Shown here: positions 2,253 through 15,753 of the stretch, piece after piece
How the letters are laid out: each line of letters opens with the position of its first letter
Position numbering within the stretch: the first letter of the stretch is position 1
Source: Steroidobacteraceae bacterium
Lineage (GTDB): Bacteria; Pseudomonadota; Gammaproteobacteria; Steroidobacterales; Steroidobacteraceae
DNA: 58,707 nucleotides
Assembly: GCA_035937715.1 (NCBI GenBank)
Contig: DASZHQ010000023.1
Span: 1 to 58,707, forward strand
Reading direction: 5' to 3'
Notes under the pieces: generated by a model
What the model saw: only the letters and a program-made list of their open reading frames with translations
Told to the model about the DNA's origin: nothing
Databases searched by the model: none
Translations under genes and position numbers: made by a program

Positions 2253-4766
2253 GTGCCGCGCCTGCGGCGTCCTGGCGGGCCGTTTCGGGCTGGTGGCCCG
2301 GCCGATGTGTCTGGACGCATCCGGCACCGCCTCTCTACACTCGCTGCGCATCCGACCAAGCGGATCAGGAGTTCGATTCTGCGGCTGTGGGGTTTCATTT
2401 GCTTCGCGGCCGCAACGCTGCCGGTCGTCGCGTCTGCCGCCGAGGCGACGGCGGCTTCTCCCAGCAATCCGGCGACTGCCCAGGAGCTTCCGCAGGTCAC
2501 GGTGATCGGTACCACGCCGCTACCGGGTCTCGGCCTGCCTCTGAATCAGATACCCGCAAATGTACAGACCGCCGACAGCAGGGACATGCAGCGTCAGCAG
2601 GCTCTGGGTCTGGCGGATTACCTGAACAACAACTTCAGCGGCGTCAACGTCAGCGAGAGTGCCGACAACCCGTTTCAACTGGACATCAATTACCACGGGT
2701 TCACGGCGTCGCCGCTTCTGGGTACGCCCGAGGGCCTGTCGGTTTACGTGGATGGTGTGCGCGTCAATGAGTCATTCGGCGATACCGTCAATTGGGATCT
2801 GATCCCACGAGCGGCCGTTTCGACCGTAACCCTCATATCAGGCTCCAATCCCGTGTTCGGGCTCAATACCCTTGGCGGAGCGCTCTCGGTACGGACCAAG
2901 AGCGGACATGATGACCCGGGGACCGTGTTCGAGGCGTACGGTGGGTCTTTCGGCAGGCGGTCCTTCGAAGGGGAGACGGGCGGAGAGTTCGGCAACTTCG
3001 ACTATTTTCTGACAGGAAATTACTTCGACGAGACCGGTTGGCGTGATAACTCGCCGACGCGCCTCTATCAGGGCTTCGCCAAGGCTGGCTGGCAAAACGA
3101 CAGGACTGACATCGACCTGAGCTACACCTATGCGGACACCCGCCTGTACGGTAATGCTGCCCTGCCCACCAGCATGTTGGATTTTCGCCGCCAGGCAAGC
3201 TACACGCCCGACTTCACGCAGAACCTCCTCAATTTCGTGAATCTCACCGGCACGCAGTTCTTGACGGAGAAGTTGCTCCTGTCGGGGAGCATCTACTATC
3301 GCCATCTGCTGACGCGTGCCATCAACGGCAATATCAACGACAGCTACCTCGATAACAGCTACACCGGACCGCCCTTCGATTGCACGGCACCGCCCACCAG
3401 TCGAGCGGACCTCGCCTACTGCGCATCGGGCCAAAACGCCACCTCGCGGCTGACCCAGCGCACTAAAGGCCTCGGCGCACAGCTCACCGATTCCCAGAAT
3501 TTGTTCGGCTGGGCCAACCAGGCGATCCTGGGTGCGGACTACAGCGACTCGCGCGACACGTTTGTCCAGTCACAGCAGTATGGGCCGCTGTCGCCGCAGC
3601 GGATGCTCATCTACGAAGTCACTCCGTTCAACAATGAAACGGTCATCGCGCTCAGCGGAGACAACAAGATCTATGGGGTGTATGCGACCGACAACCTCTC
3701 GCCGAACAAGCTGCTGCATTTCTCGCTGTCCATTCGCTACAACCGCAGCACGGAGACACTCAACGGATACAGTGTGGACACGCATGTGGCCGATGTCGGC
3801 TCAGGATTTGACGAGGCGAGGCCTGTGATCGGCGATCATACGTTCAGCCGCGTCAATCCGGCTTTCGGATTCACGCTGACGCCGAGCGACGCCCTGACCC
3901 TTTTTGCCGACTATAACCAGGCGAGTCGTGCACCGACGGCAATTGAGCTCGGCTGCGCCAATTCCGCGGCGCCGTGCGGTCTGCCCAACGCCTTCGCAGG
4001 CGACCCGGGCTTGGACCAGGTGGTCGCGCGAACCTTCGAGGCGGGCGTACGGGGTAGTCTGCCCGATCAACGGCTGGTGTGGAGCGCAGATCTGTTCCAC
4101 ACCGTCAATAGGAATGATATCCAGTTTGTCGCGACCGCCGCCAACCAGGGCTATTTCACCAACGTTGGCAGTACGCGCCGGCAGGGACTTGATCTGGCGT
4201 TGGGCGGCAGACAAGGCGGCCTGCACTGGCAGACGGCGTATAGCTTCGTCGATGCCACCTTTCAGTCGAAGTTTGAAGTCAGTGCCAATTCGAACAGCAG
4301 CGCCGATGCCGACGGAAACATTCTCGTTCGCCCCGGAGATCGGATTCCGCTGATTCCGCGGCATACGGGCCGGCTAGTCCTCGACTACGAGCTGAGTAAA
4401 CGCTGGGAGGTGGGTGGCAACCTGGTGGTGGCCTCCGGCTCTTACCTACATGGAAATGAGAACAATGCCAATCAGGTCGGTGGCACCAACGGTGGGGGCG
4501 CTCATATCACAGGAACCGGATCGATTCCCGGTTACGCCGTGGTCAATTTGCAAAGCACCTGGCACATAAGGAAAAACGCCGAGGTTTTCGCCCACCTCGT
4601 CAACTTGTTTGACCGGGAGTATTCCACGGCCGGATTCCTGACCCGCGACGCGTTCAACCCAAACGGGTCCTTCATCCCAAATCGGGCGAATTGGACCAAT
4701 GAAAACGCAGTTTCACCCGCGCAGCCGCGCGCCATTTGGGCAGGGATGCGAATACGCCTGGATTGA
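2253..4766 (+). CDS. TonB-dependent outer membrane receptor
   Basis: Signal-like segment LRLWGFICFAAATLPVVASA, a plug start ELPQVTVIGT, and a long beta-barrel with typical TBDT motifs. The true start is probably near 2379 (non-ATG, after AGGAG); 2253 is the maximal ORF. Confidence 0.85.
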   Translation: MPRLRRPGGPFRAGGPADVSGRIRHRLSTLAAHPTKRIRSSILRLWGFICFAAATLPVVASAAEATAASPSNPATAQELPQVTVIGTTPLPGLGLPLNQIPANVQTADSRDMQRQQALGLADYLNNNFSGVNVSESADNPFQLDINYHGFTASPLLGTPEGLSVYVDGVRVNESFGDTVNWDLIPRAAVSTVTLISGSNPVFGLNTLGGALSVRTKSGHDDPGTVFEAYGGSFGRRSFEGETGGEFGNFDYFLTGNYFDETGWRDNSPTRLYQGFAKAGWQNDRTDIDLSYTYADTRLYGNAALPTSMLDFRRQASYTPDFTQNLLNFVNLTGTQFLTEKLLLSGSIYYRHLLTRAINGNINDSYLDNSYTGPPFDCTAPPTSRADLAYCASGQNATSRLTQRTKGLGAQLTDSQNLFGWANQAILGADYSDSRDTFVQSQQYGPLSPQRMLIYEVTPFNNETVIALSGDNKIYGVYATDNLSPNKLLHFSLSIRYNRSTETLNGYSVDTHVADVGSGFDEARPVIGDHTFSRVNPAFGFTLTPSDALTLFADYNQASRAPTAIELGCANSAAPCGLPNAFAGDPGLDQVVARTFEAGVRGSLPDQRLVWSADLFHTVNRNDIQFVATAANQGYFTNVGSTRRQGLDLALGGRQGGLHWQTAYSFVDATFQSKFEVSANSNSSADADGNILVRPGDRIPLIPRHTGRLVLDYELSKRWEVGGNLVVASGSYLHGNENNANQVGGTNGGGAHITGTGSIPGYAVVNLQSTWHIRKNAEVFAHLVNLFDREYSTAGFLTRDAFNPNGSFIPNRANWTNENAVSPAQPRAIWAGMRIRLD

Positions 4767-4961: not shown

Positions 4962-6053
4962 ATGAAGCGCGATGCCAGGAGCCTCCTCGTCGCCGGAGCC
5001 TCGATGTTCGGGCGTGCAGCCCTCGTCGGCGCCCTGCTCGCCTACGCGGCACTGATCCCCGCCTCGGCTGACGGTCCGACGCCGGCCTCCGCGGTGCAGT
5101 TCGGGGGACAGTGCGCGGAAGGGTTGTCTCAGGGCCGGCATGTCATGACCAACTGCACCTCGACCTGGACGGCCAAGGACGGCAAGGTCTACTGCTTCAG
5201 CAGCGAGTCGGCCAGGAAGGCATTCCTCGAGCACCCGGACGCGAATCTGCAGAAGGCGCGCGACTTCATCGCCGCCAGCAGTGTCGAATCGACCGAGAAG
5301 GCGATGCAGGACTTCGACAGTGCAGATGCGGAGGCGCTGGTCAAGGCACTCATCGACGCAAAAACCAAGGCGAATAGCGGCATATTTCCGCTGCAAGACC
5401 CGCTCAACGGCGAGCAGCTCAAACTCGTTTTCGACGCCATCGACTTCACGCGCACCATCGATGGGTACGGCTTCTTTCCCGACGTGAAGTTTCACGATCA
5501 GGCCGAGGCACAGAAGCGCTACCTGATCGATTTCTGGGTGGCACCGGCCGACGGACAGCTCAAAGTCCAGGAGATCCGCATCTACAAGGAACCGATCAAG
5601 AGTGACGGCGCCTGGGCTGTGACGGCGCGCTCGCCGGTGCCGTGGTGGTGGATTCCCGCTTCCGAGCACCCCGGACACGTCGCCAACAAACGCGGCTGGG
5701 AAGTGATGTCGGCCGTCGAACAGGGGGCGCTCGCCGAGGCGGCGAAGAACAACGGCGTGTTCAAGCTCAAGGATGACAAGACCGGCAAGGTGCTGGATCT
5801 CGAGTTCATCGACACGCATCAGCCGATCCGGCAGCTCGACGAGAACGGGCATTACTTTGCCTGTACCGACTTTCGCGCGGTCGGTACCAAGGACCAGATC
5901 TACGACATCGACTTCTGGATCACCGACAAGGACGGCAAGATGACCATCGAGCAGACCCGCGTGCACAAGGTGCCGGAGCTCAAGGATGGCAAGTGGGTAC
6001 AGGTGCCGCGCTACGAGTGGAAGGATCTCGGCAGCTCCCACGTCGTTCCCTGA
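4962..6053 (+). CDS. Secreted hypothetical protein: N-terminal YHS-like module plus two tandem copies of an uncharacterised domain of about 72 aa
   Basis: Signal peptide ending ALIPASA. YHS-like segment GGQCAEGLSQG...WTAKDGKVYCFSSESARKAFLEHPDANLQKA. Internal repeats at aa 141-212 and 265-338 share F.L.D...G..L.L.F...DG...Y.IDFW...DG...R..K.P. Confidence 0.7.
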   Translation: MKRDARSLLVAGASMFGRAALVGALLAYAALIPASADGPTPASAVQFGGQCAEGLSQGRHVMTNCTSTWTAKDGKVYCFSSESARKAFLEHPDANLQKARDFIAASSVESTEKAMQDFDSADAEALVKALIDAKTKANSGIFPLQDPLNGEQLKLVFDAIDFTRTIDGYGFFPDVKFHDQAEAQKRYLIDFWVAPADGQLKVQEIRIYKEPIKSDGAWAVTARSPVPWWWIPASEHPGHVANKRGWEVMSAVEQGALAEAAKNNGVFKLKDDKTGKVLDLEFIDTHQPIRQLDENGHYFACTDFRAVGTKDQIYDIDFWITDKDGKMTIEQTRVHKVPELKDGKWVQVPRYEWKDLGSSHVVP

Positions 6054-6107: not shown

Positions 6108-6497
6108 TCAGCGTGCCTGGCCGCCGAGGCGAAGCCATTGCGCGCCTGCCCGCTCGAGATAGGCGCGGGGGCCGTCGAGAAAAAACACCAATGACGTCGC
6201 ACTCGAGAAGCAGTAGAGCTTGCCCGCATCCGGATCGACCCAGTTGATGGAGCAATCCGCTGCGATCCTCACTCCGGCGGCAAGACCGAACGGGTCGTGG
6301 TTATCGAACTCCCCGTGCATCGTACCCGGCGGCGGCACGACTGCCTTCCAGATTCCGACGCGCTTCTGAGTCGTTGAGCGCTCCACGTCCCCCTCGCCGT
6401 CGTCGGCGGCCGCGATGGCCATCGAGGTCGCGTATGGACCGCTAACTGTCGCAGCTATTGCGAGCACCAGCAGACTCCGTAGCCATCCGCAGCTCAT
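6108..6497 (-). CDS. Small secreted YHS-like protein, paralogous to the N-terminal module of 4962..6053
   Basis: Signal peptide LRSLLVLAIAATVSG. Motif CSINWVDPDAGKLYCFSSATSLVFFLDGPRAYLERA. Its ATG overlaps the stop of the upstream beta-propeller gene (ATGA). Confidence 0.65.
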   Translation of the reverse strand: MSCGWLRSLLVLAIAATVSGPYATSMAIAAADDGEGDVERSTTQKRVGIWKAVVPPPGTMHGEFDNHDPFGLAAGVRIAADCSINWVDPDAGKLYCFSSATSLVFFLDGPRAYLERAGAQWLRLGGQAR

Positions 6498-7567
6498 TCA
6501 GGCACTACGGCCGCTACGATGCCCCAGGGACTGCCTCCGACTGCGATCTTGGCGTCGACGTGACCTGACCTCAGATCGACGACGGCGATATCGCCCGAGG
6601 GTCCATTGGCGGTGTAGGCCTTAGTCCCGTCGCGGCTCAAAGCCACGCCCCAGGGACGCTGTCCGACCTTGTCAATGGTCCTCAGGATCCGGCCGGTCTC
6701 TGCGTCGACCTCGAGCAGTGCACCAAATCGCCCGGTAGTGACGTAGAGCCGCCGACCATCCGGCGAGGCGATCCCCATCGGACGCACGACTTTCGGGTCA
6801 CCCAGTGCGATGGTCTTCAGGACCTTGTAATCGTCAGTGCTGAAAGCCGTGAGCGCCGCGCCAAATTCGCCGGTCACATAGCCGCGGTGGCCTTCCTTCG
6901 CCAGCAGAATGGCGCGCGGGCGCTTCTCGGTGGGAATCTTCGCGAGGACCTTCATGCCCTGCGCATCGACTACGTATACGGCGTTGGCAGTCTCGCAGGC
7001 GACGTAGACGATGCGATCATCGCGGCTCACCGCCACGCCTTCCGGCTCTGAACCCACGGCTACGGTGGCGCGCAACGTGCCCCTGTTCAGATCAACGGCC
7101 GACAGCATGCCCGTGTCTTCATTGGAGACGTACAACGCCTTGCCGTCGTGCGAAAGCGCAAAAGTCTCCGGATCCGCACCACTCGGGTAGGTACTGATCA
7201 GCTTCTGCGACTTGAGGTCGACCACGCCGATGCCGTCGTAGCGCCGGTCCGGCGGCGGAAGCTTCGATTCATCGACGTTCGGGCCGCCCATGGGCGAGCC
7301 CGACAGAGCCACGTACAGTCTCTGCTGGTCCGGGGAGAGCTGGATGCCGCGCGGGCGCTTACCCACCGCGATGCGCGCCACGACGCTGGCGTGCTGTGGA
7401 TCCACGATCACTACGTTGCCGCCCGTCTCATCGGAAACGTAGAGACGCTCCGCGGAAGAGGCGGCGTCATTCGCCCAGGCGCCCTGCCCCACGAGATTCA
7501 ACACCGTCAGGATCGCTGCGGCGCCGAGCTCATGCCAGCGGCCGCCAGGTGAGAGTCTCTCGCTCAT
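6494..7567 (-). CDS. YVTN-family beta-propeller repeat protein, of the class associated with PQQ-dependent catabolism
   Basis: Repeated ...YV(S/T/A)N/...G.V.V.D... blades and signal peptide AAAILTVLNLVGQGAWA. Start taken at MSERLS (ATG 7565-7567, preceded by AGGA) rather than ORF start 7597. Confidence 0.85.
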   Translation of the reverse strand: MSERLSPGGRWHELGAAAILTVLNLVGQGAWANDAASSAERLYVSDETGGNVVIVDPQHASVVARIAVGKRPRGIQLSPDQQRLYVALSGSPMGGPNVDESKLPPPDRRYDGIGVVDLKSQKLISTYPSGADPETFALSHDGKALYVSNEDTGMLSAVDLNRGTLRATVAVGSEPEGVAVSRDDRIVYVACETANAVYVVDAQGMKVLAKIPTEKRPRAILLAKEGHRGYVTGEFGAALTAFSTDDYKVLKTIALGDPKVVRPMGIASPDGRRLYVTTGRFGALLEVDAETGRILRTIDKVGQRPWGVALSRDGTKAYTANGPSGDIAVVDLRSGHVDAKIAVGGSPWGIVAAVVPE

Positions 7568-7720
7568 TGCATCATCCTGTTGCAGATCAGCGCACAAGAT
7601 ACCACTGCGCGCAAAGCGCGCCTTGAACCGCTCGGGTGCCGGAGCCGCCCGGGCGGTCTGGCGACGCGGCGCGGCGGCACGGCTGGGTAGGCCGCGGACG
7701 CCCGGGCCGGGAACTCCGGC

Positions 7721-8830
7721 TCAGTAAATGACAACGCTGCGGATCGAGGTACCGGCGTGCATCATGTCGAAAGCGTCGTTGATCTTATCGAGCGGCATCG
7801 TGTGCGTGATCAGCGGATCGATCGCTATCTTGCGGTCCATGTACCACTCCACGATCTTCGGCACGTCGGTGCGCCCGCGGGCGCCGCCGAACGCCGTTCC
7901 CTTCCACACACGGCCGGTCACCAGCTGGAAGGGCCGGGTCTTGATTTCCTGTCCGGCGCCGGCCACGCCGATGATGACCGACACGCCCCAGCCGCGGTGA
8001 CAGCATTCCAGCGCCTGGCGCATCAGGTTGACGTTGCCGATACATTCGAAGCTGTAGTCCGCGCCCCCGTCGGTGAGCGCGACGAGGTGCGCCACCAGGT
8101 CCCCCTCGACTTCCTTGGGGTTGACGAAATGGGTCATGCCGAACTTCTCGCCGAGCGCCTTGCGATTTGGGTTCAGATCGATGCCGATGATCTTGTTGGC
8201 GCCAGCCAGGCGCGCGCCCTGGATCACGTTGAGCCCGATACCGCCCAGGCCGAACACGGCGACGTTGGCGCCGGGCTCCACCTTGGCGGTATTGATCACC
8301 GCGCCGATCCCGGTGGTGACGCCGCAGCCGATGTAGCAGACCTTATCGAAGGGGGCGTCCTCGCGGATCTTGGCCACCGCGATCTCGGGCAGTACCGTGA
8401 AGTTGGAGAAGGTGGAGCAGCCCATGTAGTGATACACCTTCTCCTTGCCGAGGGAGAAGCGGCTCGTGCCGTCGGGCATCACACCCTTGCCCTGCGTGGC
8501 GCGGATCGCGGTACAAAGATTCGTCTTGCGCGACAGGCAGCTCTTGCACTGGCGGCACTCTGGCGTGTAGAGGGGAATGACGTGATCGCCGCTCTTCACC
8601 GAGGTGACCCCGGGTCCGACCTCGACCACGATGCCAGCGCCCTCGTGTCCGAGAATCGACGGGAACAGGCCCTCTGGGTCTCCTCCCGAGCGCGTGAACT
8701 CATCGGTGTGGCACACACCGGTTGCCTTGAGTTCCACCAGTACCTCGCCGGCCTTTGGCCCCTCGAGATCAACCATCACGACTTCGAGTGGCTTACCGGC
8801 AGCGTAGGCAATCGCAGCACGTGTTTTCAT
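7721..8830 (-). CDS. adhC: S-(hydroxymethyl)glutathione dehydrogenase / class III alcohol dehydrogenase
   Basis: [46 protein letters not shown]...GHEGAGIV...CRQCKSC, a hallmark class III Zn-ADH. ATG at 8828-8830 is preceded by AGGAAC. Confidence 0.95.
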
Positions 8831-8892
8831 GGCTGACAGGTTCCTGATGGCCCCGCGCACCAGCGCGGGGCTTTGAGTTCACAAACGTTCCT

Positions 8893-9514: not shown

Positions 9515-11524
9515 TCAGGAACTCATTCGGGCTCCTGGGTGCTCGCCCCGAGGTTGCTGGGCGTGCCGCATGAGTCCGTGTCGATGAATCTTGCGGTATA
9601 TGGTGCGGCGACTGATGTGCAGCCGTGCTGCAGCTGCGCTCACGTTCCATTGGCAGGACTCGAGCGTCCGCCGTAACGCCTCGCGTTCCGCATCGCTCAG
9701 TACGCTCTCGCCGTCGCCGTCGGGGAGCGGAGCCGCTTCGTCGGGCACGTCCTGCGCTGCACCGCCGCCGGCAAGCCACTCTTCGTTGAAGCCGGCCAGC
9801 GTCAGGCAATCTGACGTGCACAGCGCCAGCATGGTGCGCAAAACATTGCGCAGCTGGCGAACGTTGCCCGGCCAGGAATGGCGCACGAGCCGCTCGAGCA
9901 GCGCAGGCTCAATCTCGATCGGCGGCTCACCGGCCGCTTCGCTGCACAGTAACCTGCGAATCAGCTCCGCGCCGTCGGTGCGCTGCCGCAACGGCGGCAG
10001 CCGCACGGTGATGCCATTCAGCCGGTAGTAGAGATCCTCGCGGAACTGGCCTTTGGCGATCATATCGAGGGGGTGATGCTGCGTGGCGCTGATGACGCGC
10101 ACGTCGACGCTCACCACCTCGTTGCCCCCGAGCGGCATCACCTCGCAATCCTCGATCACATTGAGCAAGCGCGTCTGCAGCGCCACCGGCATGTCGCAGA
10201 TCTCATCAAGGAACAGCGTGCCGCCATTCGCCTGCAGGATCCTGCCCACGCCGCCTTCGCGCGTGGCACTGCTGAAAGCGCCCGGCTTGTGACCGAACAG
10301 CTCGCTTTCGATCAGAGTCTCCGGAATGGCGGCGCAGTTCACCGTGACGAAGGGTTTACCCGCGCGATTGCTGGCGTTATGGATGGCGCGCGCGCAATAA
10401 CCCTTACCGGTGCCCGTTTCGCCCAGCAACAGCACCGAGATATCGCGATCGATCACGCGCCGCAGAACCTCTACGTTGTCCCGCATCGTCGGATCCGCCG
10501 AATACAGGCACTCGAGCGAGCCGCGTGTCTCGGCGACCGACGCGCCGCCGGCGCCCTCGGCCGCGCCTACGGCGACCTGGGTGTGGTGGGGGGACTCCGC
10601 CGGCGCATGTACGGTCGCAAACCAGCGTCTCTGGGCGAACTTCGGGTTCAGCGCTTCGGCACGATAGCCGCGCTGTCCCGTCAGCCGCATTAGGGCCGCG
10701 AGGCTCGTATTGAGGACCTGATCCACCCGCCGCCCGTATACGGACTCGTGGTCGCGAAGGCCGAGCAGCTTCAGCGCTGCCCGGTTGGCGCCCTTGATGC
10801 GGCCCTGATCGTCGAAGGCAATAACCCCTTCACCGGGCGTGCTGACGAACTCCGCACAGCGGTGAAACCGCACCAGATGAAGCTCCTTGCAGGCGCTGAG
10901 CAGGGTGCGGTTTTCGACATTCTGGGCCGCCATATCGACCAGAGCCAGCGTGTGGCTCTGGGGGCTGGAGGAGGCTCCGGAGATGTCGAGCGCAGCCAGC
11001 AGCTCCCCGCGCATGTCAAAGATGGGAGCCGCGGAGCAGGTCAGCTGCGTGTTCTGCGCCAGGAAATGATCGGTGCGGTGAATCACGACGGGCCGACGGG
11101 CCGTCAGACAGGTCCCCATACCGTTCGTGCCCATCTCCCGCTCACTCCACATCACTCCCTCGCGAAAGCCGCTGCGCCGGGCGGTGGCCAGGAAGCCGCT
11201 ATCACCGAGGTAGCTCACGATAACCCCGTCGCGATCGGTCAGCATGATGCTGTACTCGGAGTGCCTGATGAGCTTTCCCAGGGCCTCCATCTCGATACGT
11301 GCGATGGCGAGCAGGACGCCAAGGCGCTCGCGACGGGCCTGCAGGTCCGCCCGCTCGACGCTGTTCGGGCGCCTGATCTCTTGCGGGTCGAGCGCGTAGT
11401 TATTGAGACAGCGGCTCCAGGAAGTCCGGACGACTTCCGGGATCGGGAACTCCGCACCATGCCTTCGTACCAGATTGCCGATGAGGTCCGCAGGATTGTG
11501 GGATGCGGGTCGCGCACGCATCAT
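9515..11524 (-). CDS. Sigma54-interaction-domain transcriptional activator (AcoR-like: N-terminal GAF-like sensory region, AAA+ domain, C-terminal Fis-type HTH)
   Basis: Walker A GETGTGKG, ESELFGH, the loop GAFSSA in place of GAFTGA (10265..10282), GTLFLDEI, and C-terminal HTH AAARLHISRRTIYRKI. Confidence 0.9.
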   Translation of the reverse strand: MMRARPASHNPADLIGNLVRRHGAEFPIPEVVRTSWSRCLNNYALDPQEIRRPNSVERADLQARRERLGVLLAIARIEMEALGKLIRHSEYSIMLTDRDGVIVSYLGDSGFLATARRSGFREGVMWSEREMGTNGMGTCLTARRPVVIHRTDHFLAQNTQLTCSAAPIFDMRGELLAALDISGASSSPQSHTLALVDMAAQNVENRTLLSACKELHLVRFHRCAEFVSTPGEGVIAFDDQGRIKGANRAALKLLGLRDHESVYGRRVDQVLNTSLAALMRLTGQRGYRAEALNPKFAQRRWFATVHAPAESPHHTQVAVGAAEGAGGASVAETRGSLECLYSADPTMRDNVEVLRRVIDRDISVLLLGETGTGKGYCARAIHNASNRAGKPFVTVNCAAIPETLIESELFGHKPGAFSSATREGGVGRILQANGGTLFLDEICDMPVALQTRLLNVIEDCEVMPLGGNEVVSVDVRVISATQHHPLDMIAKGQFREDLYYRLNGITVRLPPLRQRTDGAELIRRLLCSEAAGEPPIEIEPALLERLVRHSWPGNVRQLRNVLRTMLALCTSDCLTLAGFNEEWLAGGGAAQDVPDEAAPLPDGDGESVLSDAEREALRRTLESCQWNVSAAAARLHISRRTIYRKIHRHGLMRHAQQPRGEHPGARMSS

Positions 11525-11564: not shown

Positions 11565-12101
11565 TCATTTGCCTCCGCAGCCGAATTTGCACTCCGGCGC
11601 GCCGTGGTAATTGGCCCGTATAAACGTAAGGATGCGCCACAAATCATCATCCGTCTGCACGATTTGCCCCATGGGTGGCATGGCGCCTACGACGTTCTCC
11701 GCGGCCTTGCGGCTGTAGCCCTTGCTCTGCAGGGTCTCGCTGCCGTACGCCATCAGCCTGAACAACGTGTCGTCATCGCCGCCGTAAACCCAGACGTCGT
11801 TGGTCAGGGGCGGGCACATGCCCCCGCCGCCGGTGCCGCCGTGGCAGCCGCTGCACCCGTAGCGCATGTACACCTGGCGGCCCGCATCGACGACCCCCGC
11901 GTCGCTATCCTTATAAGGATTCTTGAGCGTGCCCTGCGGCGCGGAGTCTGCCCGCTGTACGGGCGCCATCGTGCTGCCGGATGGCGGTGAAGCTTGCGCT
12001 CCCGCCTGCGCCCCGGAAGGCGCAGCCGGTGTCTGTTCCTGCGCATATGTCAACGATGAGATCAGTCCGGCCATGCAAGCGACCAATGTAGCCTTAAGCA
12101 C
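11565..12101 (-). CDS. xoxG: c-type cytochrome, methanol-metabolism related (XoxG/cytochrome cL-like)
   Basis: One CSGCH haem motif plus a C-terminal Cys pair (CKFGCGG). Start taken at the GTG giving signal peptide MLKATLVACMAGLISSLTYA. This GTG overlaps the upstream stop (TAGTG). The maximal ORF begins at TTG 12143. Confidence 0.8.
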   Translation of the reverse strand: MLKATLVACMAGLISSLTYAQEQTPAAPSGAQAGAQASPPSGSTMAPVQRADSAPQGTLKNPYKDSDAGVVDAGRQVYMRYGCSGCHGGTGGGGMCPPLTNDVWVYGGDDDTLFRLMAYGSETLQSKGYSRKAAENVVGAMPPMGQIVQTDDDLWRILTFIRANYHGAPECKFGCGGK

Positions 12102-13765
12102 TACGCGCCTCGCTTGTCCATTTGCCCACCACGTCCGTTCCAAGCGCCGGGACGTGCGGGCGCTTCATCCAGCAGCCTGATCACCTTCTCATCACCCTTG
12201 GCGCGCGCGATCGACAGCGCCGTATCGCCGCGGTCGGTCTGCGCCTTCACGTTTGCGCCGGCGCGCACCAGCAGCTCGACCATATCGGCGCGGCCGTTCG
12301 CGGCCGCGACCATCAGCGCGGTCACGCCGCCGCTATTGCGGGAGTTCACATCAACGCCTTTTTGAATCAGAGCCTGTACCACCGCTTGCGCGCCGTTTGC
12401 AGTCGCGAGCATCAGCGGCGTATAGCCAGCGTCGCCCATCACCCGACCCGGATCAGCGCCCGCCTCGATCAGAGCCTCGGCAGCCCTGTCCTTGCCATAC
12501 TGCGCAGCGATGCCGAGCGGCGTGAAATTCTGGGCACTTGCGGCATTGGGATCACCGCCGTGTGCGGCCAGGACCTTGACATCGACGGCGTCATCGCAAT
12601 AGGCCGCCGTCATAAGTGGCGTCCAGCCGTCGCGATCGCGCTGGTTGGCGTCGGCACCATGCGCGATCAGGAACCCGACCATGGCCGGGGACCTCTGCAG
12701 CAGGGCATGATGCAGAGGCGTTTCACCCTGCAGGTCCTGGGCGGAAAGCGAGGCGTGCTTCTTCTCGAGCAGATAGGCCGCGCGCACCTGATCATCCGCC
12801 ATCACCGCGTTGTTGAGCTCCACGTTGACATTCGCGCCGTGGGCCAGCCAGTCGTTCAGCTGGGCAATGCTCACCGAGGGCCTGGCACCGCCCGGCGCAG
12901 GGGGCGCGGGCGGCGCATACGGTCCATGCGCCGGCAGGTCCCCGCTGATTACACAGGTGTCGCAGCTCACGAGCGGGACCCCGAAGTCACTCAGGATCGC
13001 GTGCAGCGCGTCGCGCTGCGCGCGCATCGCCTCGTCCAGGCGGCGCCGCAGGTCCTTGTCGCCACGACGCAGCCCGATAGCCATGTCATATTCCAGCTGC
13101 ACGGCATCGTCCATCAGATTGGCCGGCTGAATGGTCAGCGGCGCCTGTTTCATGACCCTGTAATAGCCCGCCAGCGGTCCCCAGACTGCAGCCACGTCGA
13201 GCTTGCCGTCGACCATCTGCTGCACCTGGTAGTTCGGCTGATGTGCCGTAACCAGATCGGCGTCGTGACTGAGGTAATGGATCTCGACGTTGCTGACGCC
13301 GTGATCGGCCAGAGCCTGGCGGATCGCCGAAGTCTCGTAGACGCCGACCTTGAGCCTTTTCAGTCGCGGATCATCGAGACTCTTGAGGGTGCCGAGGCCC
13401 CGGTCGCTGCGGTAAGCGAGCACGTAGGTCGTGCGGTACAGGGCCGTGGTGGTGATGACATCGTCTGAACCGAGTGGCATGTCGAGCATGACGTCGCACT
13501 GCTCGGCGTCCAGCGTCGTGCGAGTCAGCCCGCGCTCGATGCCCAGCCGGTAGTAGTACTCGACGGTGGTGTCGAGCGCGCGCGCGAGTACCGCTGCGAT
13601 CTTGTTCTCAAAACCCTCGCCGCGATTGTTGGAGAGGGGCATGTTGCCCGGATCGGCACACACGCGCAGTGCCGCCTGGGCTGCACCAGGCGCGATCAGC
13701 AGAGTGACCACCCCTGCGGCCAGCGCTGCATTGAGCACCGACCCGGCTCTCCTCCACCTCGTCAT
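12101..13765 (-). CDS. XoxJ/MoxJ-like periplasmic substrate-binding protein fused to a C-terminal ankyrin-repeat array
   Basis: Signal peptide ending APGAAQA. LRVCADPGNMPLSN...GFENKIA matches the quinoprotein-dehydrogenase-associated SBP family. After a Pro-rich linker ([12 protein letters not shown]) come about 6 ankyrin repeats (G.TPL..A...G....V..L...GA..N). Confidence 0.85.
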   Translation of the reverse strand: MTRWRRAGSVLNAALAAGVVTLLIAPGAAQAALRVCADPGNMPLSNNRGEGFENKIAAVLARALDTTVEYYYRLGIERGLTRTTLDAEQCDVMLDMPLGSDDVITTTALYRTTYVLAYRSDRGLGTLKSLDDPRLKRLKVGVYETSAIRQALADHGVSNVEIHYLSHDADLVTAHQPNYQVQQMVDGKLDVAAVWGPLAGYYRVMKQAPLTIQPANLMDDAVQLEYDMAIGLRRGDKDLRRRLDEAMRAQRDALHAILSDFGVPLVSCDTCVISGDLPAHGPYAPPAPPAPGGARPSVSIAQLNDWLAHGANVNVELNNAVMADDQVRAAYLLEKKHASLSAQDLQGETPLHHALLQRSPAMVGFLIAHGADANQRDRDGWTPLMTAAYCDDAVDVKVLAAHGGDPNAASAQNFTPLGIAAQYGKDRAAEALIEAGADPGRVMGDAGYTPLMLATANGAQAVVQALIQKGVDVNSRNSGGVTALMVAAANGRADMVELLVRAGANVKAQTDRGDTALSIARAKGDEKVIRLLDEAPARPGAWNGRGGQMDKRGA

Positions 13766-13807
13766 TCGCTGCGGCTCCTCGGCCTTGCGGTGCCTTCGCA
13801 GGGACGA

Positions 13808-13842
13808 GGGACGCGCCCGGCGCCAGCGCCGGAGCGCGTCCC
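13808..13842 (-). terminator. Strong intercistronic stem-loop between xoxF and the xoxJ-like gene (attenuator or mRNA stabiliser candidate)
   Basis: On the minus strand: GGGACGCGC-T-CCGGCGC-TGG-CGCCGG-GCGCGTCCC. This gives about 15-16 bp of pairing with one bulge and no clear U-tract. Confidence 0.45.
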
Positions 13843-13881
13843 ACCCGTCGCACTATCTGACAATAATTCCTTTGTCGCGTT

Positions 13882-15753
13882 TCATTCCTGTACTGCGAAG
13901 GTATACAGCGTCCCGCCCTGCGGAATCATGCTGAGATTCGCCGCTTTGGTCATGGCGGTGGCGCCGATCGCGCCGAACTTGTCGTTCAGATCAAGACCCG
14001 CAGTCACCGGCAGGCCGATCCAGCCGCCGATACCGCTCCACACGGACACGTACTGCTTGCCCTTGACGCGGTAGGTGATCGGGTTTCCGATGATTCCCGA
14101 TCCCAGCCGTCTCTGCCACAGCACCTTGCCCGAGGCGCGATCGACCGCGCGGAAGTCGCCGTTCAGGCTGCCGTAGAACGCCAGGCCGCCATCCGTGACC
14201 AGGGCACCGCCCCAGTTCGGATAAGGATCCGGAATTTCCCACACGGTCTCCCCGGTCAGAACGTTGAACTTCTTGAACTTGCCGGTGATGCCCGGTTTTT
14301 CCGGATACATGTAGACGTTGGCAAATACGTAGACGATACCCTGCTGGGTATGCGACCGCTCCTGGGGCTCATCTTCCATGCACCAGTTGTTGGTCGGGCA
14401 GTACGCCATGCCCGGCTCGCTCGGATCGATCGCGCAGGGCTGCTGATCCTTGCCGCCCATGGCCGACGGACAGGCCTGCGTATTGCCGTGCGCCTTCAGC
14501 GGCGAGTGCTCGAACACCTTGACGGGCCGGCCGGTCTTCATGTCGACCTTTTCCGCCCAGTTGGTGGTCACGTACTTGTGGGCGCGCAGCAGCGTGCCAT
14601 CCACGCGGTCCAGTACGTACGCAAAGCCGTTGCGGTCGAAGTGGATCAGCACTTTGCGAGGCTTGCCGTCGACGGTAAGGTCCTCGAGCATGTTCTCGTT
14701 GATGCCGTCATAGTCCCACTGGTCGAACGGCGTCATCTGATACGCCCATGCGACTTCGCCGGTTTCGACGTTGCGCGCGAAGATCGTCATCGACCACTTG
14801 TTGTCCCACTTGCCGTTGTTGCACGCCTCCTGCGTCACAGGGGTTGCTCCGCAGCGGTATTGCGGGCTCCACAGGCCGGGGTTGCCGCTCGCTGCGTAGA
14901 CCAGCTTCAGCTCAGGATCGTAGCTGTAGAAGCCCCACATCGCGCCGCCACCACGCTGCCACTCGTCGCCCGGATAGCTGGAAATGCCGACGTCGTGCCC
15001 GGCAGTACCGTACTCGGGATGCTTCTTATTGCTGTTCTTCGTCAGACACACGTCCTTGTCGCTGCCGGTGTTGTAGCACTCCCAGATCTTCTTGCCACTC
15101 TGCAGATCGTAGGCCGTGAACCGACCGCGCGCCGCGAACTCATCACCGCCGAAGCCGATCAGGACCTTGCCCTCGGCAATCAGGGGCGCAGGCGTAATGG
15201 TCTCGCCCTTGTCCGGATAAGCGTGCTTGACTACCCAGGCTTCCTTGCCCGTCACGGCGTCGAGGGCAATCACGAAGCCATCCAGCGTTCCGAACACCAG
15301 CTTGCCATTCGCAAACGACGGACCGCGGTTGACGGTGTCGCAGCACGCGCGCGGTACCGCGGATTCGTCGCGATTGGTCGTCTTCTTGTAGTTCCAGACC
15401 TCCTTCGGATGATCTGGATCGCTCAGATCGAGCGCCTGGATGATATTCGGCCAGCCGCTCTCCATGTACATCATCGGTTTGCCGTTGACGACGACGACCA
15501 GCGGTTGGCCTTCGTGGCCGCGCAACGTGCCGCTCGACTGCGACCACACCATGCCCAAATGACCAACATTCGAGGTGTTGATGTCTTTGAGCGCGCTGTG
15601 CCGCGTCAAGGCCTGATCGCCACCGGGAGCGGCCCAGAGATTAGAATCCTTTGAGCGGTCGGTGACCTCATCCCCAATTGCCGCTGCGCAGAACGCTCCA
15701 AGTGCCAGCGCGGCGCCTACGGCGCATAGGGTTCTATTGCGTTCGAATCGCAT
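13882..15753 (-). CDS. xoxF: PQQ-dependent methanol dehydrogenase, XoxF (lanthanide-dependent) type
   Basis: Signal peptide; GTLRGHEGQPLVV; vicinal Cys pair PRACCD; WDYDG, with DYD encoded at 14707..14715. ATG at 15751-15753 is preceded by AGGAGA. ORF-track start 15852 is rejected. Confidence 0.93.
   Translation of the reverse strand: MRFERNRTLCAVGAALALGAFCAAAIGDEVTDRSKDSNLWAAPGGDQALTRHSALKDINTSNVGHLGMVWSQSSGTLRGHEGQPLVVVVNGKPMMYMESGWPNIIQALDLSDPDHPKEVWNYKKTTNRDESAVPRACCDTVNRGPSFANGKLVFGTLDGFVIALDAVTGKEAWVVKHAYPDKGETITPAPLIAEGKVLIGFGGDEFAARGRFTAYDLQSGKKIWECYNTGSDKDVCLTKNSNKKHPEYGTAGHDVGISSYPGDEWQRGGGAMWGFYSYDPELKLVYAASGNPGLWSPQYRCGATPVTQEACNNGKWDNKWSMTIFARNVETGEVAWAYQMTPFDQWDYDGINENMLEDLTVDGKPRKVLIHFDRNGFAYVLDRVDGTLLRAHKYVTTNWAEKVDMKTGRPVKVFEHSPLKAHGNTQACPSAMGGKDQQPCAIDPSEPGMAYCPTNNWCMEDEPQERSHTQQGIVYVFANVYMYPEKPGITGKFKKFNVLTGETVWEIPDPYPNWGGALVTDGGLAFYGSLNGDFRAVDRASGKVLWQRRLGSGIIGNPITYRVKGKQYVSVWSGIGGWIGLPVTAGLDLNDKFGAIGATAMTKAANLSMIPQGGTLYTFAVQE

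What the first reader, a model, noticed from the sequence alone, without database searches (positions are those of the whole stretch)
2253..15753. Lanthanide-type xoxF heads a long gene string with a non-canonical accessory set: candidate undescribed lanthanide/metal acquisition and handling system
Eight minus-strand genes are co-directional from 15753 to 6108, with short gaps or overlapping stop/start codons: xoxF, xoxJ-ankyrin, xoxG, a sigma54-type activator, gfa, adhC, a YVTN beta-propeller and a small YHS-like protein. Convergent on the end of this string is a larger secreted protein carrying the same YHS-like module, and next to that a TonB-dependent receptor.

XoxF enzymes need a rare-earth ion delivered to the periplasm. 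The known uptake systems (lut-type TonB receptor plus ABC transporter, lanmodulin) do not resemble the YHS-like pair or the ankyrin fusion seen here, and no lut-type ABC genes are adjacent. The gene set therefore looks like a different solution to the same problem.

The functional link is inference from gene order only.
Basis: partly seen in the sequence, partly recalled or inferred. Interest (0 to 1): 0.75.

Follow-up and report, generated by a model that had tools for sequence, protein, structure and literature searches.

The report
Lanthanide methanol-oxidation island, unusual accessory genes
This is a soil-bacterium (Steroidobacteraceae-type) gene island for rare-earth-dependent methanol oxidation and glutathione-linked formaldehyde removal; it carries an unreported XoxJ-ankyrin fusion, while the 'YHS-like' proteins and TonB receptor proposed as a new rare-earth uptake system are only optional neighbours with no shown metal role.

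Summary
All ten genes are present at the stated coordinates. The minus-strand string is longer than described. It begins at fghA (22735) and runs through an efflux adaptor, a CzcA/ZneA-like RND pump and a porin before reaching xoxF.

The dehydrogenase is an XoxF1-type lanthanide enzyme, 62% identical to PDB 7o6z. It has the DYD motif and the XoxF1-diagnostic Asp. gfa, adhC and fghA complete glutathione-dependent formaldehyde oxidation. pqqB, pqqD and pqqE (and probably pqqC) and a MoxY-type sensor kinase lie 13-18 kb away.

Comparative genomics over about 170 related loci gives three tiers:
- Core: xoxF, XoxJ-ankyrin, cytochrome c, sigma54 activator, gfa and adhC. The RND pump is nearly always nearby, and the porin and beta-propeller usually are.
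- Facultative: the 363-aa YHS-like protein adjoins 6 of 9 independently sampled clusters, yet two thirds of its own loci lie elsewhere. The 129-aa protein is in about 40% of clusters and also occurs in unrelated contexts.
- Already known kind: the beta-propeller belongs to the PedA2 kind found in lanthanide-uptake operons.

No metal binding is shown for any of these proteins. Verdict: observation confirmed, interpretation partly supported, and a new variant of a known kind. The XoxJ-ankyrin fusion and the unannotated 363-aa family are the new items.

The parts
2253..4766 (+). TonB-dependent outer-membrane receptor; facultative neighbour of the cluster
   Evidence: Plug and TonB_dep_Rec_b-barrel domains. 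No NCBIfam equivalog reaches its cutoff; the PqqU model gives 86 bits against a cutoff of 1200. No PDB relative by sequence. A homologue of at least 55% identity lies in 17 of 30 xoxF-linked loci. Only a 36%-identical one was seen in the loci scored as unlinked (L080).
4962..6053 (+). 363-aa secreted protein ('Y363'): signal peptide, YHS-like N-terminal module, then two copies of an unannotated alpha+beta domain
   Evidence: No Pfam family; NF041384 25 bits, below the cutoff of 70. More than 1030 homologues at 73-86% identity, in Steroidobacteraceae-type MAGs. AF2 model with pLDDT 75: each repeat is a helix plus a six-stranded sheet; there is no significant PDB match and the nearest shapes are NTF2/cystatin-like. 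Internal duplication of 32% identity over 93 aa, E 8e-15. The repeat also occurs alone or doubled without the N-terminal domain, and once fused to a Metal_resist/LTXXQ domain.
6108..6497 (-). 129-aa secreted YHS-like protein ('Y129'); last gene of the minus-strand string, overlapping the propeller gene's stop
   Evidence: Shares 40% identity over 47 aa with the Y363 N-terminal module. Weak Pfam YHS hits in 25 of 29 family members, best E 6e-4. The AF2 model is of low confidence (pLDDT 56) and no fold match was found. 561 homologues. Found in about 10 of 23 clusters that keep both flanking genes, and also in unrelated contexts. A 60-62%-identical homologue lies near the xoxF cluster in a distant lineage.
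6494..7597 (-). Periplasmic YVTN seven-bladed beta-propeller of the PedA2 / 'PQQ-dependent catabolism-associated' kind
   Evidence: TIGR03866 222 bits (cutoff 287); TIGR02276 YVTN repeats 134 bits; Pfam YNCE. PedA2 of the lanthanide ABC-uptake operon is a YVTN propeller (PMC6839425). Follows adhC in most related clusters.
7721..8860 (-). adhC/frmA, S-(hydroxymethyl)glutathione dehydrogenase
   Evidence: TIGR02818 623 bits, above the cutoff of 544.
8893..9474 (-). gfa, S-(hydroxymethyl)glutathione synthase
   Evidence: TIGR02820 322 bits, above the cutoff of 235.
9515..11524 (-). Sigma54-dependent activator (GAF, PAS, AAA+, Fis-type HTH; MimR_N-type N-terminus in homologues)
   Evidence: Sigma54_activat 210 bits, plus GAF and HTH_8. 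MimR_N is annotated on homologues. The gene is conserved inside the cluster in every lineage examined.
11565..12143 (-). XoxG-position c-type cytochrome (CSGCH haem motif), divergent from canonical cytochrome cL
   Evidence: Cytochrome_CBB3 and Cytochrom_C domains. TIGR03872 MoxG only 41.6 bits against a cutoff of 148. Always follows xoxJ-ankyrin in related loci.
12101..13765 (-). XoxJ-ankyrin fusion: signal peptide, XoxJ-type periplasmic binding fold (aa 32-266), Cys-containing linker, about seven ankyrin repeats (aa 300-540)
   Evidence: TIGR03871 245 bits, above the cutoff of 212; Ank_2 224 bits. The 120 listed homologues, at 71-99% identity, all carry ankyrin domains and run 522-567 aa. 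Full-length matches extend down to 39-50% identity in metagenomes. No paper in the searchable library holds both 'XoxJ' and 'ankyrin'.
13882..15753 (-). XoxF1-type lanthanide-dependent PQQ methanol dehydrogenase
   Evidence: TIGR03075 553 bits, above the cutoff of 480. Best PDB hit is 7o6z, the Nd-XoxF1 of Methylacidimicrobium: 862 bits, 62% identity. WDYDG, the vicinal CC and the XoxF1-diagnostic Asp in GGDEF are all present.
15943..16006 (-). xoxF upstream control region: weak GG-N10-GC sigma54-like site (15958-15943) and a TGTG-N10-CACA-like inverted repeat (16006-15989)
   Evidence: Canonical TGGCAT-N5-TTGC lies 120-285 bp upstream of xoxF in 14 distant-lineage loci, and TGGCAC-N5-CTGC in L104, L109 and L136. 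In the window's own lineage only the TGCTGCA part and the upstream inverted repeat are conserved. A consensus scan of the whole window is not above chance.
16246..17763 (-). Outer-membrane porin (Porin_4 type in homologues); the likely true start is near 17535
   Evidence: Homologues are annotated PF13609 Porin_4. Sits directly upstream of xoxF in the window's lineage. A 36-41%-identical homologue lies near the cluster in the distant lineage.
17790..20909 (-). RND inner-membrane pump of heavy-metal-efflux type (CzcA/ZneA-like)
   Evidence: ACR_tran 709 bits. Best NCBIfam model is CusA/CzcA TIGR00914, 517 bits against a cutoff of 701. Best PDB hit is ZneA at 360 bits, ahead of CusA at 280 and AcrB at 217. 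ZneA residues D602 and E610 are kept and D654/D658 become E. CusA M573 aligns with His and M623 with Lys. A 69-90%-identical homologue lies next to xoxF across lineages.
20855..21802 (-). RND periplasmic adaptor (membrane fusion protein)
   Evidence: TIGR01730 40 bits against a cutoff of 95, so a weak match; its position matches the adaptor gene in relatives. No outer-membrane factor gene is present anywhere in the window, unlike several relatives.
21845..22735 (-). fghA, S-formylglutathione hydrolase; first gene of the string
   Evidence: TIGR02821 433 bits, above the cutoff of 282.
28746..31931 (-). PQQ biosynthesis genes pqqB, pqqD and pqqE, with an unscanned ORF in the pqqC position; context rather than part of the string
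   Evidence: PqqB TIGR02108 384 bits, PqqD TIGR03859 104 bits and PqqE TIGR02109 512 bits, all above their cutoffs. pqqC is inferred only from the 232-aa ORF at 30316-31014, which I did not scan.
32233..34211 (+). MoxY-type sensor kinase plus NarL/LuxR-type response regulator; context
   Evidence: LapD_MoxY_N, HisKA_3 and HATPase_c domains. The response regulator's best model is UvrY/GacA at 192 bits, below its cutoff of 280.

Best explanation
The region is the core of a C1-oxidation island in a Steroidobacteraceae-type gammaproteobacterium.

**Proposed pathway**
- Methanol reaches the periplasm, plausibly through the porin encoded just upstream of xoxF.
- The XoxF1-type enzyme, carrying PQQ and a lanthanide, oxidises it. 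Electrons pass to the adjacent c-type cytochrome.
- Formaldehyde is trapped by glutathione (Gfa), oxidised (AdhC) and hydrolysed to formate (FghA).
- The embedded GAF-PAS sigma54 activator probably drives xoxF from a sigma54 promoter.
- PQQ is made by pqq genes about 13 kb away.

**Accessory proteins**
- XoxJ is fused to a periplasmic ankyrin domain. This is the obligate form of XoxJ for this XoxF subclade. It most likely tethers XoxJ to XoxF, XoxG or another partner during cofactor loading or electron transfer.
- A CzcA/ZneA-like RND pump with a carboxylate-rich periplasmic site is almost always next to xoxF. It is the best candidate for hard-cation (lanthanide) homeostasis.
- The TonB receptor, the 363-aa protein and the 129-aa protein form a facultative add-on present in only some lineages. 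It is plausibly an outer-membrane import step plus periplasmic carriers that supply a metal or metal chelate. It is not required by the cluster.

**Shown:** gene identities, gene order, conservation and domain architecture.
**Inferred:** substrate, regulation, every metal role and the function of the ankyrin domain.
For: - Enzyme and pathway identities pass curated cutoffs.
- XoxF1 assignment: 62% identity to 7o6z; DYD motif; diagnostic Asp172 equivalent.
- The core order xoxF, xoxJ-ankyrin, cytochrome c, sigma54 activator, gfa, adhC recurs in the near lineage, and the same gene set recurs rearranged in other lineages. The RND pump is nearby in most loci that extend far enough.
- Canonical sigma54 promoters lie upstream of xoxF in related lineages.
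- Published parallel: in M. flagellatus, La3+ induces XoxF, XoxG, a TonB receptor, a sigma54 regulator next to xoxF, and a CusA-family pump whose Cu-binding Met triad is replaced (PMC9988556). The window's pump likewise has His and Lys at two of those positions and keeps ZneA's acidic site.
- The TBDR-Y363 pair adjoins the cluster in two different arrangements, and xoxF-linked Y363 copies cluster together in a tree.
- One relative carries the Y363 repeat fused to a heavy-metal-resistance domain.
Against: - There are no expression, binding or genetic data.
- Y363 and Y129 families are mostly found away from xoxF, and complete clusters exist without them.
- All relatives come from one order-level group of MAGs. 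Shared synteny could therefore reflect descent rather than selection.
- The sigma54 site in the window itself is weak and not above chance.
- The RND pump, the propeller, the cytochrome and both YHS-like modules all score below their families' curated cutoffs.
- The pump has no outer-membrane factor gene in this window.
- Fold searches for Y363 and Y129 gave nothing significant.
Confidence: 0.6

Rival explanations
1. The YHS-like pair, the TonB receptor, the beta-propeller and XoxJ-ankyrin together form a dedicated, previously undescribed lanthanide acquisition and handling system that replaces the lut/lanmodulin systems.
For: - The TBDR-Y363 pair is adjacent in 6 of 9 unbiased clusters and in two arrangements.
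- TBDR homologues of at least 55% identity appear only in xoxF-linked Y363 loci.
- A Y129 homologue lies near the cluster in a distant lineage.
- No lut-type ABC genes were seen among the window ORFs I scanned.
- Y363 is acidic, with pI 5.4 and many invariant Asp, Glu and His residues.
- The Y363 repeat occurs fused to a Metal_resist domain.
Against: - The components do not travel as a set. Y129 is in about 40% of clusters, and some clusters have none of the three.
- Both YHS-like families also occur in unrelated contexts, and one genome has xoxF and Y363 about 600 kb apart.
- The propeller is of the known PedA2 kind.
- No metal-binding evidence exists.
Confidence: 0.2
2. The TonB receptor, Y363 and Y129 have nothing to do with XoxF. 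They are lineage-specific periplasmic proteins, for example for iron or copper uptake or for thiol/redox homeostasis, and they lie next to the cluster in some genomes only through inherited synteny.
For: - 54 of 80 Y363 loci are elsewhere, most often beside a DsbA gene (22 loci) or a LytS/LytTR system.
- Y129 homologues lie beside ROK and amine-oxidase genes.
- Y363 is transcribed convergently to the string in the window.
- All loci come from related MAGs.
Against: - Adjacency survives rearrangement in L136 and L104, where TBDR and Y363 head the same strand as RND and xoxF.
- Y129 overlaps the stop codon of the propeller gene in the window.
- Y129 recurs near the cluster in a lineage where XoxJ is only 48% identical.
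- xoxF-linked Y363 copies form coherent clades.
Confidence: 0.3
3. The island serves periplasmic alcohol and formaldehyde detoxification or co-oxidation in a heterotroph, not methylotrophic growth. The RND pump and porin would handle organic solvents or aldehydes rather than metals.
For: - The full glutathione formaldehyde-detoxification set brackets the pump and porin.
- No C1-assimilation genes were found among the window ORFs I scanned.
- The activator's N-terminus resembles MimR/AcoR-type small-molecule sensors.
Against: - The pump is closer to metal pumps (ZneA 360 bits, CusA 280) than to multidrug pumps (AcrB 217), and it keeps ZneA's acidic metal site.
- XoxF1-type enzymes are characterised as methanol dehydrogenases (PMC8546591).
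- One relative has RuBisCO inserted beside the cluster.
Confidence: 0.3

Closest known systems
XoxF1-type Nd/Ln methanol dehydrogenase of Methylacidimicrobium thermophilum AP8 (PDB 7o6z; PMC8546591)
   Same: 62% identity over the full length. Shares the PQQ-ADH fold family, the vicinal Cys-Cys, the lanthanide-coordinating Asp (WDYDG), the XoxF1-diagnostic Asp in GGDEF and the Gly259 equivalent.
   Different: The host is a gammaproteobacterial soil lineage rather than a verrucomicrobial thermoacidophile. Ala replaces Cys240. The partner XoxJ carries an ankyrin domain. No biochemical data exist.
Canonical xoxFGJ operons with XoxJ of Methylorubrum extorquens, and the xoxF / adhI-gfa neighbourhoods of Paracoccus and Rhodobacter (recalled from memory, not tested here)
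   Same: xoxF sits with a dedicated c-type cytochrome and a XoxJ-family periplasmic binding-fold protein. It is linked to glutathione-dependent formaldehyde oxidation (gfa, adhC, fghA).
   Different: The gene order is xoxF-J-G. XoxJ is fused to about seven ankyrin repeats. The cytochrome is far below the MoxG model cutoff. A sigma54 activator, an RND pump, a porin and a propeller are embedded in the string.
Lanthanum-response proteins of Methylobacillus flagellatus (Hemmann et al. 2023, PMC9988556)
   Same: Shares a sigma54 activator next to xoxF, a TonB receptor, and a CusA-family RND pump with adaptor that lacks the Cu-binding Met triad. That study also found a tandem small-domain periplasmic lanthanide binder, LanP.
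   Different: There the genes are scattered and their link comes from proteomics; here they are contiguous. Y363 has no detectable PepSY domain. Lanthanide induction here is unknown.
PedA1A2BC / Lut lanthanide ABC-uptake systems (PMC6839425)
   Same: A YVTN beta-propeller of the 'PQQ-dependent catabolism-associated' kind (PedA2) sits beside a lanthanide-dependent PQQ dehydrogenase.
   Different: No substrate-binding protein, ATPase or permease of that system was found among the ORFs scanned. The propeller scores 222 bits against a cutoff of 287. It is followed by a YHS-like gene instead.
XoxF3 neighbourhoods in Acidobacteria, Gemmatimonadetes and Verrucomicrobia MAGs (PMC10875860)
   Same: Uncultured soil bacteria in which xoxF co-localises with a TonB transporter, a YncE-type propeller, XoxJ/XoxG and small (~110 aa) hypothetical proteins.
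   Different: A different XoxF clade and phyla. Those clusters carry cytochrome oxidase and NRAMP genes. I saw no mention of an ankyrin fusion, an RND pump or YHS-like proteins in the passages I read.
AnkB of Pseudomonas aeruginosa, a periplasmic ankyrin protein needed for full catalase KatB activity (recalled from memory, not tested here)
   Same: An exported ankyrin-repeat protein encoded next to a periplasmic redox enzyme, acting as its helper.
   Different: AnkB is free-standing and serves a catalase. Here the ankyrin repeats are fused to XoxJ.

Membership tests
XoxF (lanthanide-dependent PQQ methanol dehydrogenase), clade XoxF1 | Member of the PQQ methanol/ethanol dehydrogenase family | tested here: met
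   TIGR03075 553 bits, above the cutoff of 480.
XoxF (lanthanide-dependent PQQ methanol dehydrogenase), clade XoxF1 | Extra lanthanide-coordinating Asp two residues after the catalytic Asp (DYD rather than DYA) | tested here: met
   FDQWDYDGINE aligns residue for residue with the same motif in 7o6z.
XoxF (lanthanide-dependent PQQ methanol dehydrogenase), clade XoxF1 | XoxF1-diagnostic Asp172 (GGDEF), described in PMC8546591 | tested here: met
   The window has GFGGDEF aligned to GYGGDEF of 7o6z. The companion Cys240 is Ala here.
XoxF (lanthanide-dependent PQQ methanol dehydrogenase), clade XoxF1 | Lanthanide-dependent methanol oxidation activity | not testable with these tools
   Needs enzyme purification and assay.
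XoxJ (quinoprotein dehydrogenase-associated periplasmic binding-fold protein) | Match to the XoxJ/MoxJ_2 family model | tested here: met
   TIGR03871 245 bits, above the cutoff of 212, over aa 32-266.
XoxJ (quinoprotein dehydrogenase-associated periplasmic binding-fold protein) | Single-domain architecture of roughly 230-280 aa | tested here: not met
   The protein is 554 aa with a C-terminal ankyrin array (Ank_2 224 bits). The fusion is conserved in all 120 listed homologues.
XoxG / cytochrome cL | Match to the MoxG equivalog model | tested here: not met
   TIGR03872 41.6 bits against a cutoff of 147.8. The CxxCH motif and the conserved position next to xoxJ are present.
Glutathione-dependent formaldehyde oxidation (Gfa, AdhC/FrmA, FghA/FrmB) | All three enzymes are present | tested here: met
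   TIGR02820 322 bits, TIGR02818 623 bits and TIGR02821 433 bits, all above their cutoffs.
Lut/Ped-type lanthanide uptake (TonB receptor LutH/LanA, ABC transporter, YVTN propeller, lanmodulin) | PedA2/LutB-type YVTN beta-propeller | tested here: inconclusive
   TIGR03866 is the best model at 222 bits, below the cutoff of 287.
Lut/Ped-type lanthanide uptake (TonB receptor LutH/LanA, ABC transporter, YVTN propeller, lanmodulin) | Adjacent ABC substrate-binding protein, ATPase and permease | tested here: not met
   None among the scanned ORFs between 1 and 28 kb. The only transporter of that sort seen is a MacB/FtsX-type permease at 42.6-45.1 kb. Not every small ORF was scanned.
Lut/Ped-type lanthanide uptake (TonB receptor LutH/LanA, ABC transporter, YVTN propeller, lanmodulin) | Orthology of the TonB receptor to LutH/LanA | not tested
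The receptor matches only generic TonB models.
YHS domain (Pfam PF04945) / YHS (seleno)protein NF041384 | Score above the family threshold | tested here: not met
   Y129: YHS 15.3 bits against a cutoff of 30.3, with weak hits in 25 of 29 relatives. Y363: NF041384 25 bits against a cutoff of 70. Remote homology is plausible; membership is not shown.
Heavy-metal-efflux RND pumps (CusA/CzcA, TIGR00914) | Score above the family threshold | tested here: not met
   517 bits against a cutoff of 701. It is still the best-scoring model, ahead of the multidrug models at 417 bits or less.
Heavy-metal-efflux RND pumps (CusA/CzcA, TIGR00914) | Periplasmic metal-site residues | tested here: inconclusive
   ZneA D602 and E610 are kept and D654/D658 become E. 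CusA M573 aligns with His and M623 with Lys (alignments). This pattern is compatible with a hard cation, but it is inference only.
Sigma54-dependent regulation of xoxF | Enhancer-binding protein with an AAA+ sigma54-interaction domain and an HTH | tested here: met
   PF00158 210 bits and HTH_8 46 bits.
Sigma54-dependent regulation of xoxF | A -24/-12 promoter upstream of xoxF | tested here: inconclusive
   Canonical sites are present in related lineages. In the window there is only CGGTGA-N5-TCTGCT, and the window-wide scan is not above chance.

The most novel reading that the evidence does not exclude
Three linked proposals remain open.
1. The TonB receptor and the 363-aa protein are an outer-membrane importer and a periplasmic carrier for lanthanides or a lanthanide chelate. 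The 363-aa protein is a YHS-like module followed by two copies of a domain with no Pfam family. The small YHS-like protein and the PedA2-like propeller would hand the metal on to XoxF.
2. XoxJ-ankyrin is the docking scaffold for that hand-off.
3. The CzcA/ZneA-like pump exports excess lanthanide.

Together these would form a contiguous, ABC-independent periplasmic lanthanide supply-and-homeostasis system specific to XoxF1 enzymes of soil Gammaproteobacteria.
Probability: 0.2. Interest if true: 0.8.

Novelty: new variant of a known kind. Interest (0 to 1): 0.5.

Why it matters
How lanthanides reach periplasmic XoxF enzymes is known for only a few model methylotrophs, and the proteins involved differ between lineages. 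These Steroidobacteraceae-type bacteria appear repeatedly in soil and peat metagenomes, and their XoxF1 cluster has not been described in the literature I could search.

The cluster offers three concrete, testable items:
- An obligate XoxJ-ankyrin fusion, which could reveal what XoxJ binds.
- A metal-type RND pump physically joined to xoxF. This matches a lanthanum-induced pump seen by proteomics in another methylotroph.
- A highly conserved protein family with no Pfam family that often pairs with a TonB receptor beside the cluster.

If any of these handles rare earths, it would add new parts for lanthanide biochemistry and for bio-recovery of these metals. If none does, the region is still a clean example of a complete lanthanide methanol / glutathione-formaldehyde oxidation island.

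Tried and rejected
- An exact-sequence lookup of the 363-aa protein found nothing, so I used homologues instead.
- Fold search of the Y363 model found no match at E <= 0.001. The nearest shapes were NTF2, cystatin and VirB8-like tandem domains.
- The Y129 model is low confidence (pLDDT 56). Its fold search gave only E > 1 hits to the small ribosomal protein eL24, a zinc-ribbon/TRASH-like fold as I recall. That fits YHS/TRASH loosely but is not evidence.
- The TonB receptor has no sequence relative in the PDB.
- A window-wide sigma54 consensus scan found 29 matches against 28 expected, with none in the xoxF upstream region at two mismatches or fewer. Phylogenetic footprinting was more informative.
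- Sigma70-promoter and terminator scans did not exceed shuffles. The one well-placed promoter-like site lies upstream of fghA at 22793-22764.
- Literature searches for 'YHS domain' with xoxF and for XoxJ with ankyrin returned nothing.
- I considered that the TonB receptor might be the PQQ importer PqqU. I rejected this: 86 bits against a cutoff of 1200, and pqqB, pqqD and pqqE are present in the window.
- I considered that Y363 might be a tandem-PepSY protein like LanP. No PepSY hit appeared, and each repeat is larger, with a helix plus six strands.
- The tRNA-Glu call inside adhC is probably a false positive.

Full report

Yes.

- TonB-dependent receptor: 2253-4766 (+).
- 363-aa secreted protein (Y363): 4962-6053 (+).
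- 129-aa secreted protein (Y129): 6108-6497 (-).
- YVTN beta-propeller: 6494-7597 (-). Its stop overlaps the Y129 start.
- adhC: 7721-8860 (-).
- gfa: 8893-9474 (-).
- GAF-PAS-sigma54-HTH activator: 9515-11524 (-).
- c-type cytochrome with CSGCH: 11565-12143 (-).
- XoxJ fused to ankyrin repeats: 12101-13765 (-).
- PQQ dehydrogenase: 13882-15753 (-).

Y129 and the N-terminus of Y363 share a module: 40% identity over 47 aa, E 1e-9. Calling that module 'YHS-like' is fair only as remote similarity. Pfam YHS scores 15 bits against a cutoff of 30 for Y129, though 25 of 29 relatives hit weakly. NF041384 scores 25 bits against a cutoff of 70 for Y363.

**2.

The minus-strand string does not begin at xoxF. 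Upstream, on the same strand, lie four more genes.

- A porin, 16246-17763. Homologues are annotated Porin_4.
- An RND pump, 17790-20909.
- The pump's adaptor, 20855-21802.
- fghA, 21845-22735 (TIGR02821, 433 bits).

With gfa and adhC, fghA completes glutathione-dependent formaldehyde oxidation. The three genes bracket the pump, the porin and the xox genes.

The pump is closest to metal pumps. Its best NCBIfam model is CusA/CzcA (517 bits, below the cutoff of 701). Its best PDB hit is ZneA at 360 bits, ahead of CusA at 280 and AcrB at 217. In the printed alignments ZneA's proximal-site residues D602 and E610 are kept, and D654 and D658 become Glu. CusA's Cu-binding M573 and M623 align with His and Lys. 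Unlike several relatives, the window has no outer-membrane factor gene.

Further along the window are two more relevant features.

- pqqB, pqqD and pqqE score above their cutoffs within 28746-31931 (-). An unscanned 232-aa ORF at 30316-31014 sits where pqqC would be expected.
- A kinase with a LapD_MoxY_N sensor domain, plus a NarL-type regulator, lies at 32233-34211 (+).

**3. The enzyme**

XoxF scores 553 bits on TIGR03075, above the cutoff of 480. It is 62% identical to PDB 7o6z. That entry is the neodymium XoxF1-type methanol dehydrogenase of Methylacidimicrobium thermophilum (PMC8546591).

It has the vicinal Cys pair, the lanthanide-coordinating Asp (WDYDG), and the Asp in GGDEF that the paper calls diagnostic for XoxF1. 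The paper's Cys240 is Ala here.

**4. XoxJ-ankyrin**

The XoxJ part passes its family cutoff: TIGR03871, 245 bits against 212. About seven ankyrin repeats follow a conserved Cys-containing linker. A signal peptide implies the whole fusion is periplasmic.

All 120 listed homologues, at 71-99% identity, are 522-567 aa long and carry ankyrin domains. A metagenome scan found full-length fusions down to 39-50% identity. Wherever upstream sequence exists, these sit next to an XoxF that is 73-97% identical to the window's. Plain XoxJ proteins sit next to XoxF proteins only 39-51% identical, which are other clades.

The fusion is therefore the standard XoxJ of this XoxF1 subclade. No paper in the searchable library contains both 'XoxJ' and 'ankyrin'.

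**5. Comparative genomics of the accessory genes**

*Sampling on Y363.* Searching 185,579 species genomes found 196 loci. The 80 fetched were labelled Steroidobacteraceae, Steroidobacterales, a related Rudaea, or only as uncultured (gamma)proteobacteria.

- 26 of the best 80 lie next to the xoxF cluster and 54 do not.
- The commonest neighbours of the 54 are a DsbA gene (22 loci), DUF5996, and a LytS/LytTR system.
- In an NJ tree the xoxF-linked copies cluster together, and a large separate clade is never linked. Some genomes hold two copies.

*Sampling on XoxJ-ankyrin.* This sample is not conditioned on Y363. The conserved core is:

fghA, (outer-membrane factor), adaptor, RND, porin, xoxF, xoxJ-ankyrin, cytochrome c, sigma54 activator, gfa, adhC, (propeller).

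Among nine distinct contexts that extend far enough:

- Y363 is adjacent in six: L089, L095, L099, L100, L104 and L136.
- It is absent in three: L087, L088 and L107.
- Y129 is absent in all nine.

In L136 the order is TBDR, a Y363 homologue (54% identity), a ~900-bp gap I did not annotate, RND, xoxF, and so on, all on one strand. That is a different arrangement from the window's convergent one.

In one 3.8-Mb contig the cluster lacks Y363, and a 76%-identical Y363 homologue sits about 600 kb away.

*Y129.* It lies between the propeller and Y363 in about 10 of 23 clusters that keep both flanking genes. Two 61-62%-identical homologues sit between ROK and amine-oxidase genes with no xoxF nearby.

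A distant lineage has XoxJ-ankyrin at about 48% identity and XoxF at about 78%. There, a 60-62%-identical Y129 homologue lies beside the porin, or a few kb beyond it, in four loci. SoxYZ, MBL and FCSD genes intervene in L132, and homologous ORFs do so in L120.

*TBDR.* A homologue of at least 55% identity appears in 17 of 30 xoxF-linked loci. Only a 36%-identical one appears in the loci scored as unlinked (L080).

**6. What Y363 is**

It has no Pfam family. The AF2 model has pLDDT 75.

- A small N-terminal module spans aa 44-100.
- A helical linker follows.
- Then come two repeats, each a helix packed on a six-stranded sheet.
- The repeats are joined by an invariant PWWWIPASEHPGH loop.

The two repeats are 32% identical, E 8e-15. 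Foldseek finds nothing significant, and the nearest shapes are NTF2, cystatin and VirB8-like.

The family is unusually conserved, at 73-86% identity among the top 120 clusters. A profile search of 1.8 billion representatives finds 889 relatives. They include:

- proteins of about 275 aa with both repeats but no N-terminal module;
- single-repeat proteins of about 180 aa, preceded by EH(A/P)G motifs;
- one protein with the repeat fused to a Metal_resist/LTXXQ domain (29.3 bits against a cutoff of 29.2).

That fusion, an acidic composition (pI 5.4) and the pairing with a TonB receptor are hints of a periplasmic metal role. They are not evidence of one.

**7. Regulation**

Canonical sigma54 promoters of the form TGGCAT-N5-TTGC lie 120-285 bp upstream of xoxF in 14 distant-lineage loci. 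TGGCAC-N5-CTGC lies there in L104, L109 and L136.

In the window's own lineage the match is weak: CGGTGA-N5-TCTGCT at 15958-15943. A conserved TGTG-N10-CACA-like inverted repeat sits about 35 bp further upstream. A window-wide consensus scan is at chance level.

Sigma54 control of xoxF by the embedded activator is therefore likely for the family and only plausible for this window.

**8. Comparison with what is known**

[quoted passage not shown] A tandem-PepSY lanthanide binder was also found there (PMC9988556). The window places the same classes of gene side by side.
- PedA2 of the lanthanide ABC importer of P. putida is a YVTN propeller (PMC6839425). The window's propeller is therefore a known kind, here without the ABC genes.
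- XoxF3 clusters in other soil phyla co-localise with TonB transporters, YncE-type propellers and small hypothetical proteins (PMC10875860). The general idea of non-canonical accessory sets around xoxF is thus already published.

**9. Verdict**

- The association of the TBDR and Y363 with the cluster, and to a lesser degree of Y129, is more than casual.
- That association is facultative, and it is not specific to those protein families.
- No metal role is shown for any of them.

This is a new variant of a known kind of system. Its two unreported elements are the XoxJ-ankyrin fusion and the Y363 domain family. Interest: 0.5.

Noticed in passing
window 28746-31931 (-): PQQ biosynthesis genes about 13 kb from xoxF. 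pqqB, pqqD and pqqE score above their NCBIfam cutoffs. pqqC is inferred only from an unscanned ORF at 30316-31014.
   Followed up: partly
window 32233-34211 (+): A histidine kinase with a LapD_MoxY_N periplasmic sensor domain, followed by a NarL/LuxR-type response regulator, divergent from the pqq genes. It is a candidate methanol/lanthanide-switch two-component system.
   Followed up: partly
window 58609-58707 (-): A glycine riboswitch aptamer (Rfam RF00504, 37 bits, cut by the window end) lies upstream of gcvT (57409-58515) and a split glycine dehydrogenase (54163-57242).
   Followed up: no
window 7871-7963 (-): ARAGORN calls a 93-nt tRNA-Glu inside the adhC coding sequence. It is probably a false positive.
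   Followed up: no
window 20855-22735, compared with L087-L089, L093, L111 and L104: Relatives carry an outer-membrane factor (OEP) gene just upstream of the RND adaptor. In L089/L090 it lies between an Esterase-family gene in the fghA position and the adaptor. The window has no OEP homologue anywhere in its 58.7 kb.
   Followed up: partly
L002 7375-9915: In a relative with a 79%-identical Y363, a RuBisCO large-subunit gene and a LysR regulator are inserted between the TonB receptor and Y363, right beside the xoxF cluster.
   Followed up: no
L132 17466-21466; homologous ORFs in L120 and L128: In L132, in the distant XoxJ-ankyrin lineage, a SoxYZ fusion, a metallo-beta-lactamase-fold protein and a flavocytochrome-c sulfide dehydrogenase lie between the porin and the Y129 homologue, and a TnpB gene lies beside it. 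ORFs homologous to the first two also follow the porin in L120 and L128.
   Followed up: partly
L003-L082 (54 loci not linked to xoxF): Y363 copies away from xoxF most often have a periplasmic DsbA-like thiol-disulfide oxidoreductase gene immediately downstream (22 loci). Others have DUF5996 or a LytS/LytTR pair upstream.
   Followed up: partly
P0444, P0468, P0372 (representative library): The Y363 repeat is a free-standing, unannotated domain. It occurs singly (~180 aa, preceded by EH(A/P)G repeats), doubled (~275 aa), and once fused to a Metal_resist/LTXXQ domain.
   Followed up: partly
window 23096-25054 (+) and 36264-40664 (+): A CarboxypepD_reg plus BBP2 beta-barrel porin lies divergent from fghA, and an Lhr-type large helicase lies further on. 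Neither has an obvious link to the cluster.
   Followed up: no
L128, L132, L135: The distant lineage carries two adhC-like genes at the cluster. One is 84-86% identical to the window's adhC. The second, where measured (L135), is 59% identical and sits after the sigma54 activator.
   Followed up: no
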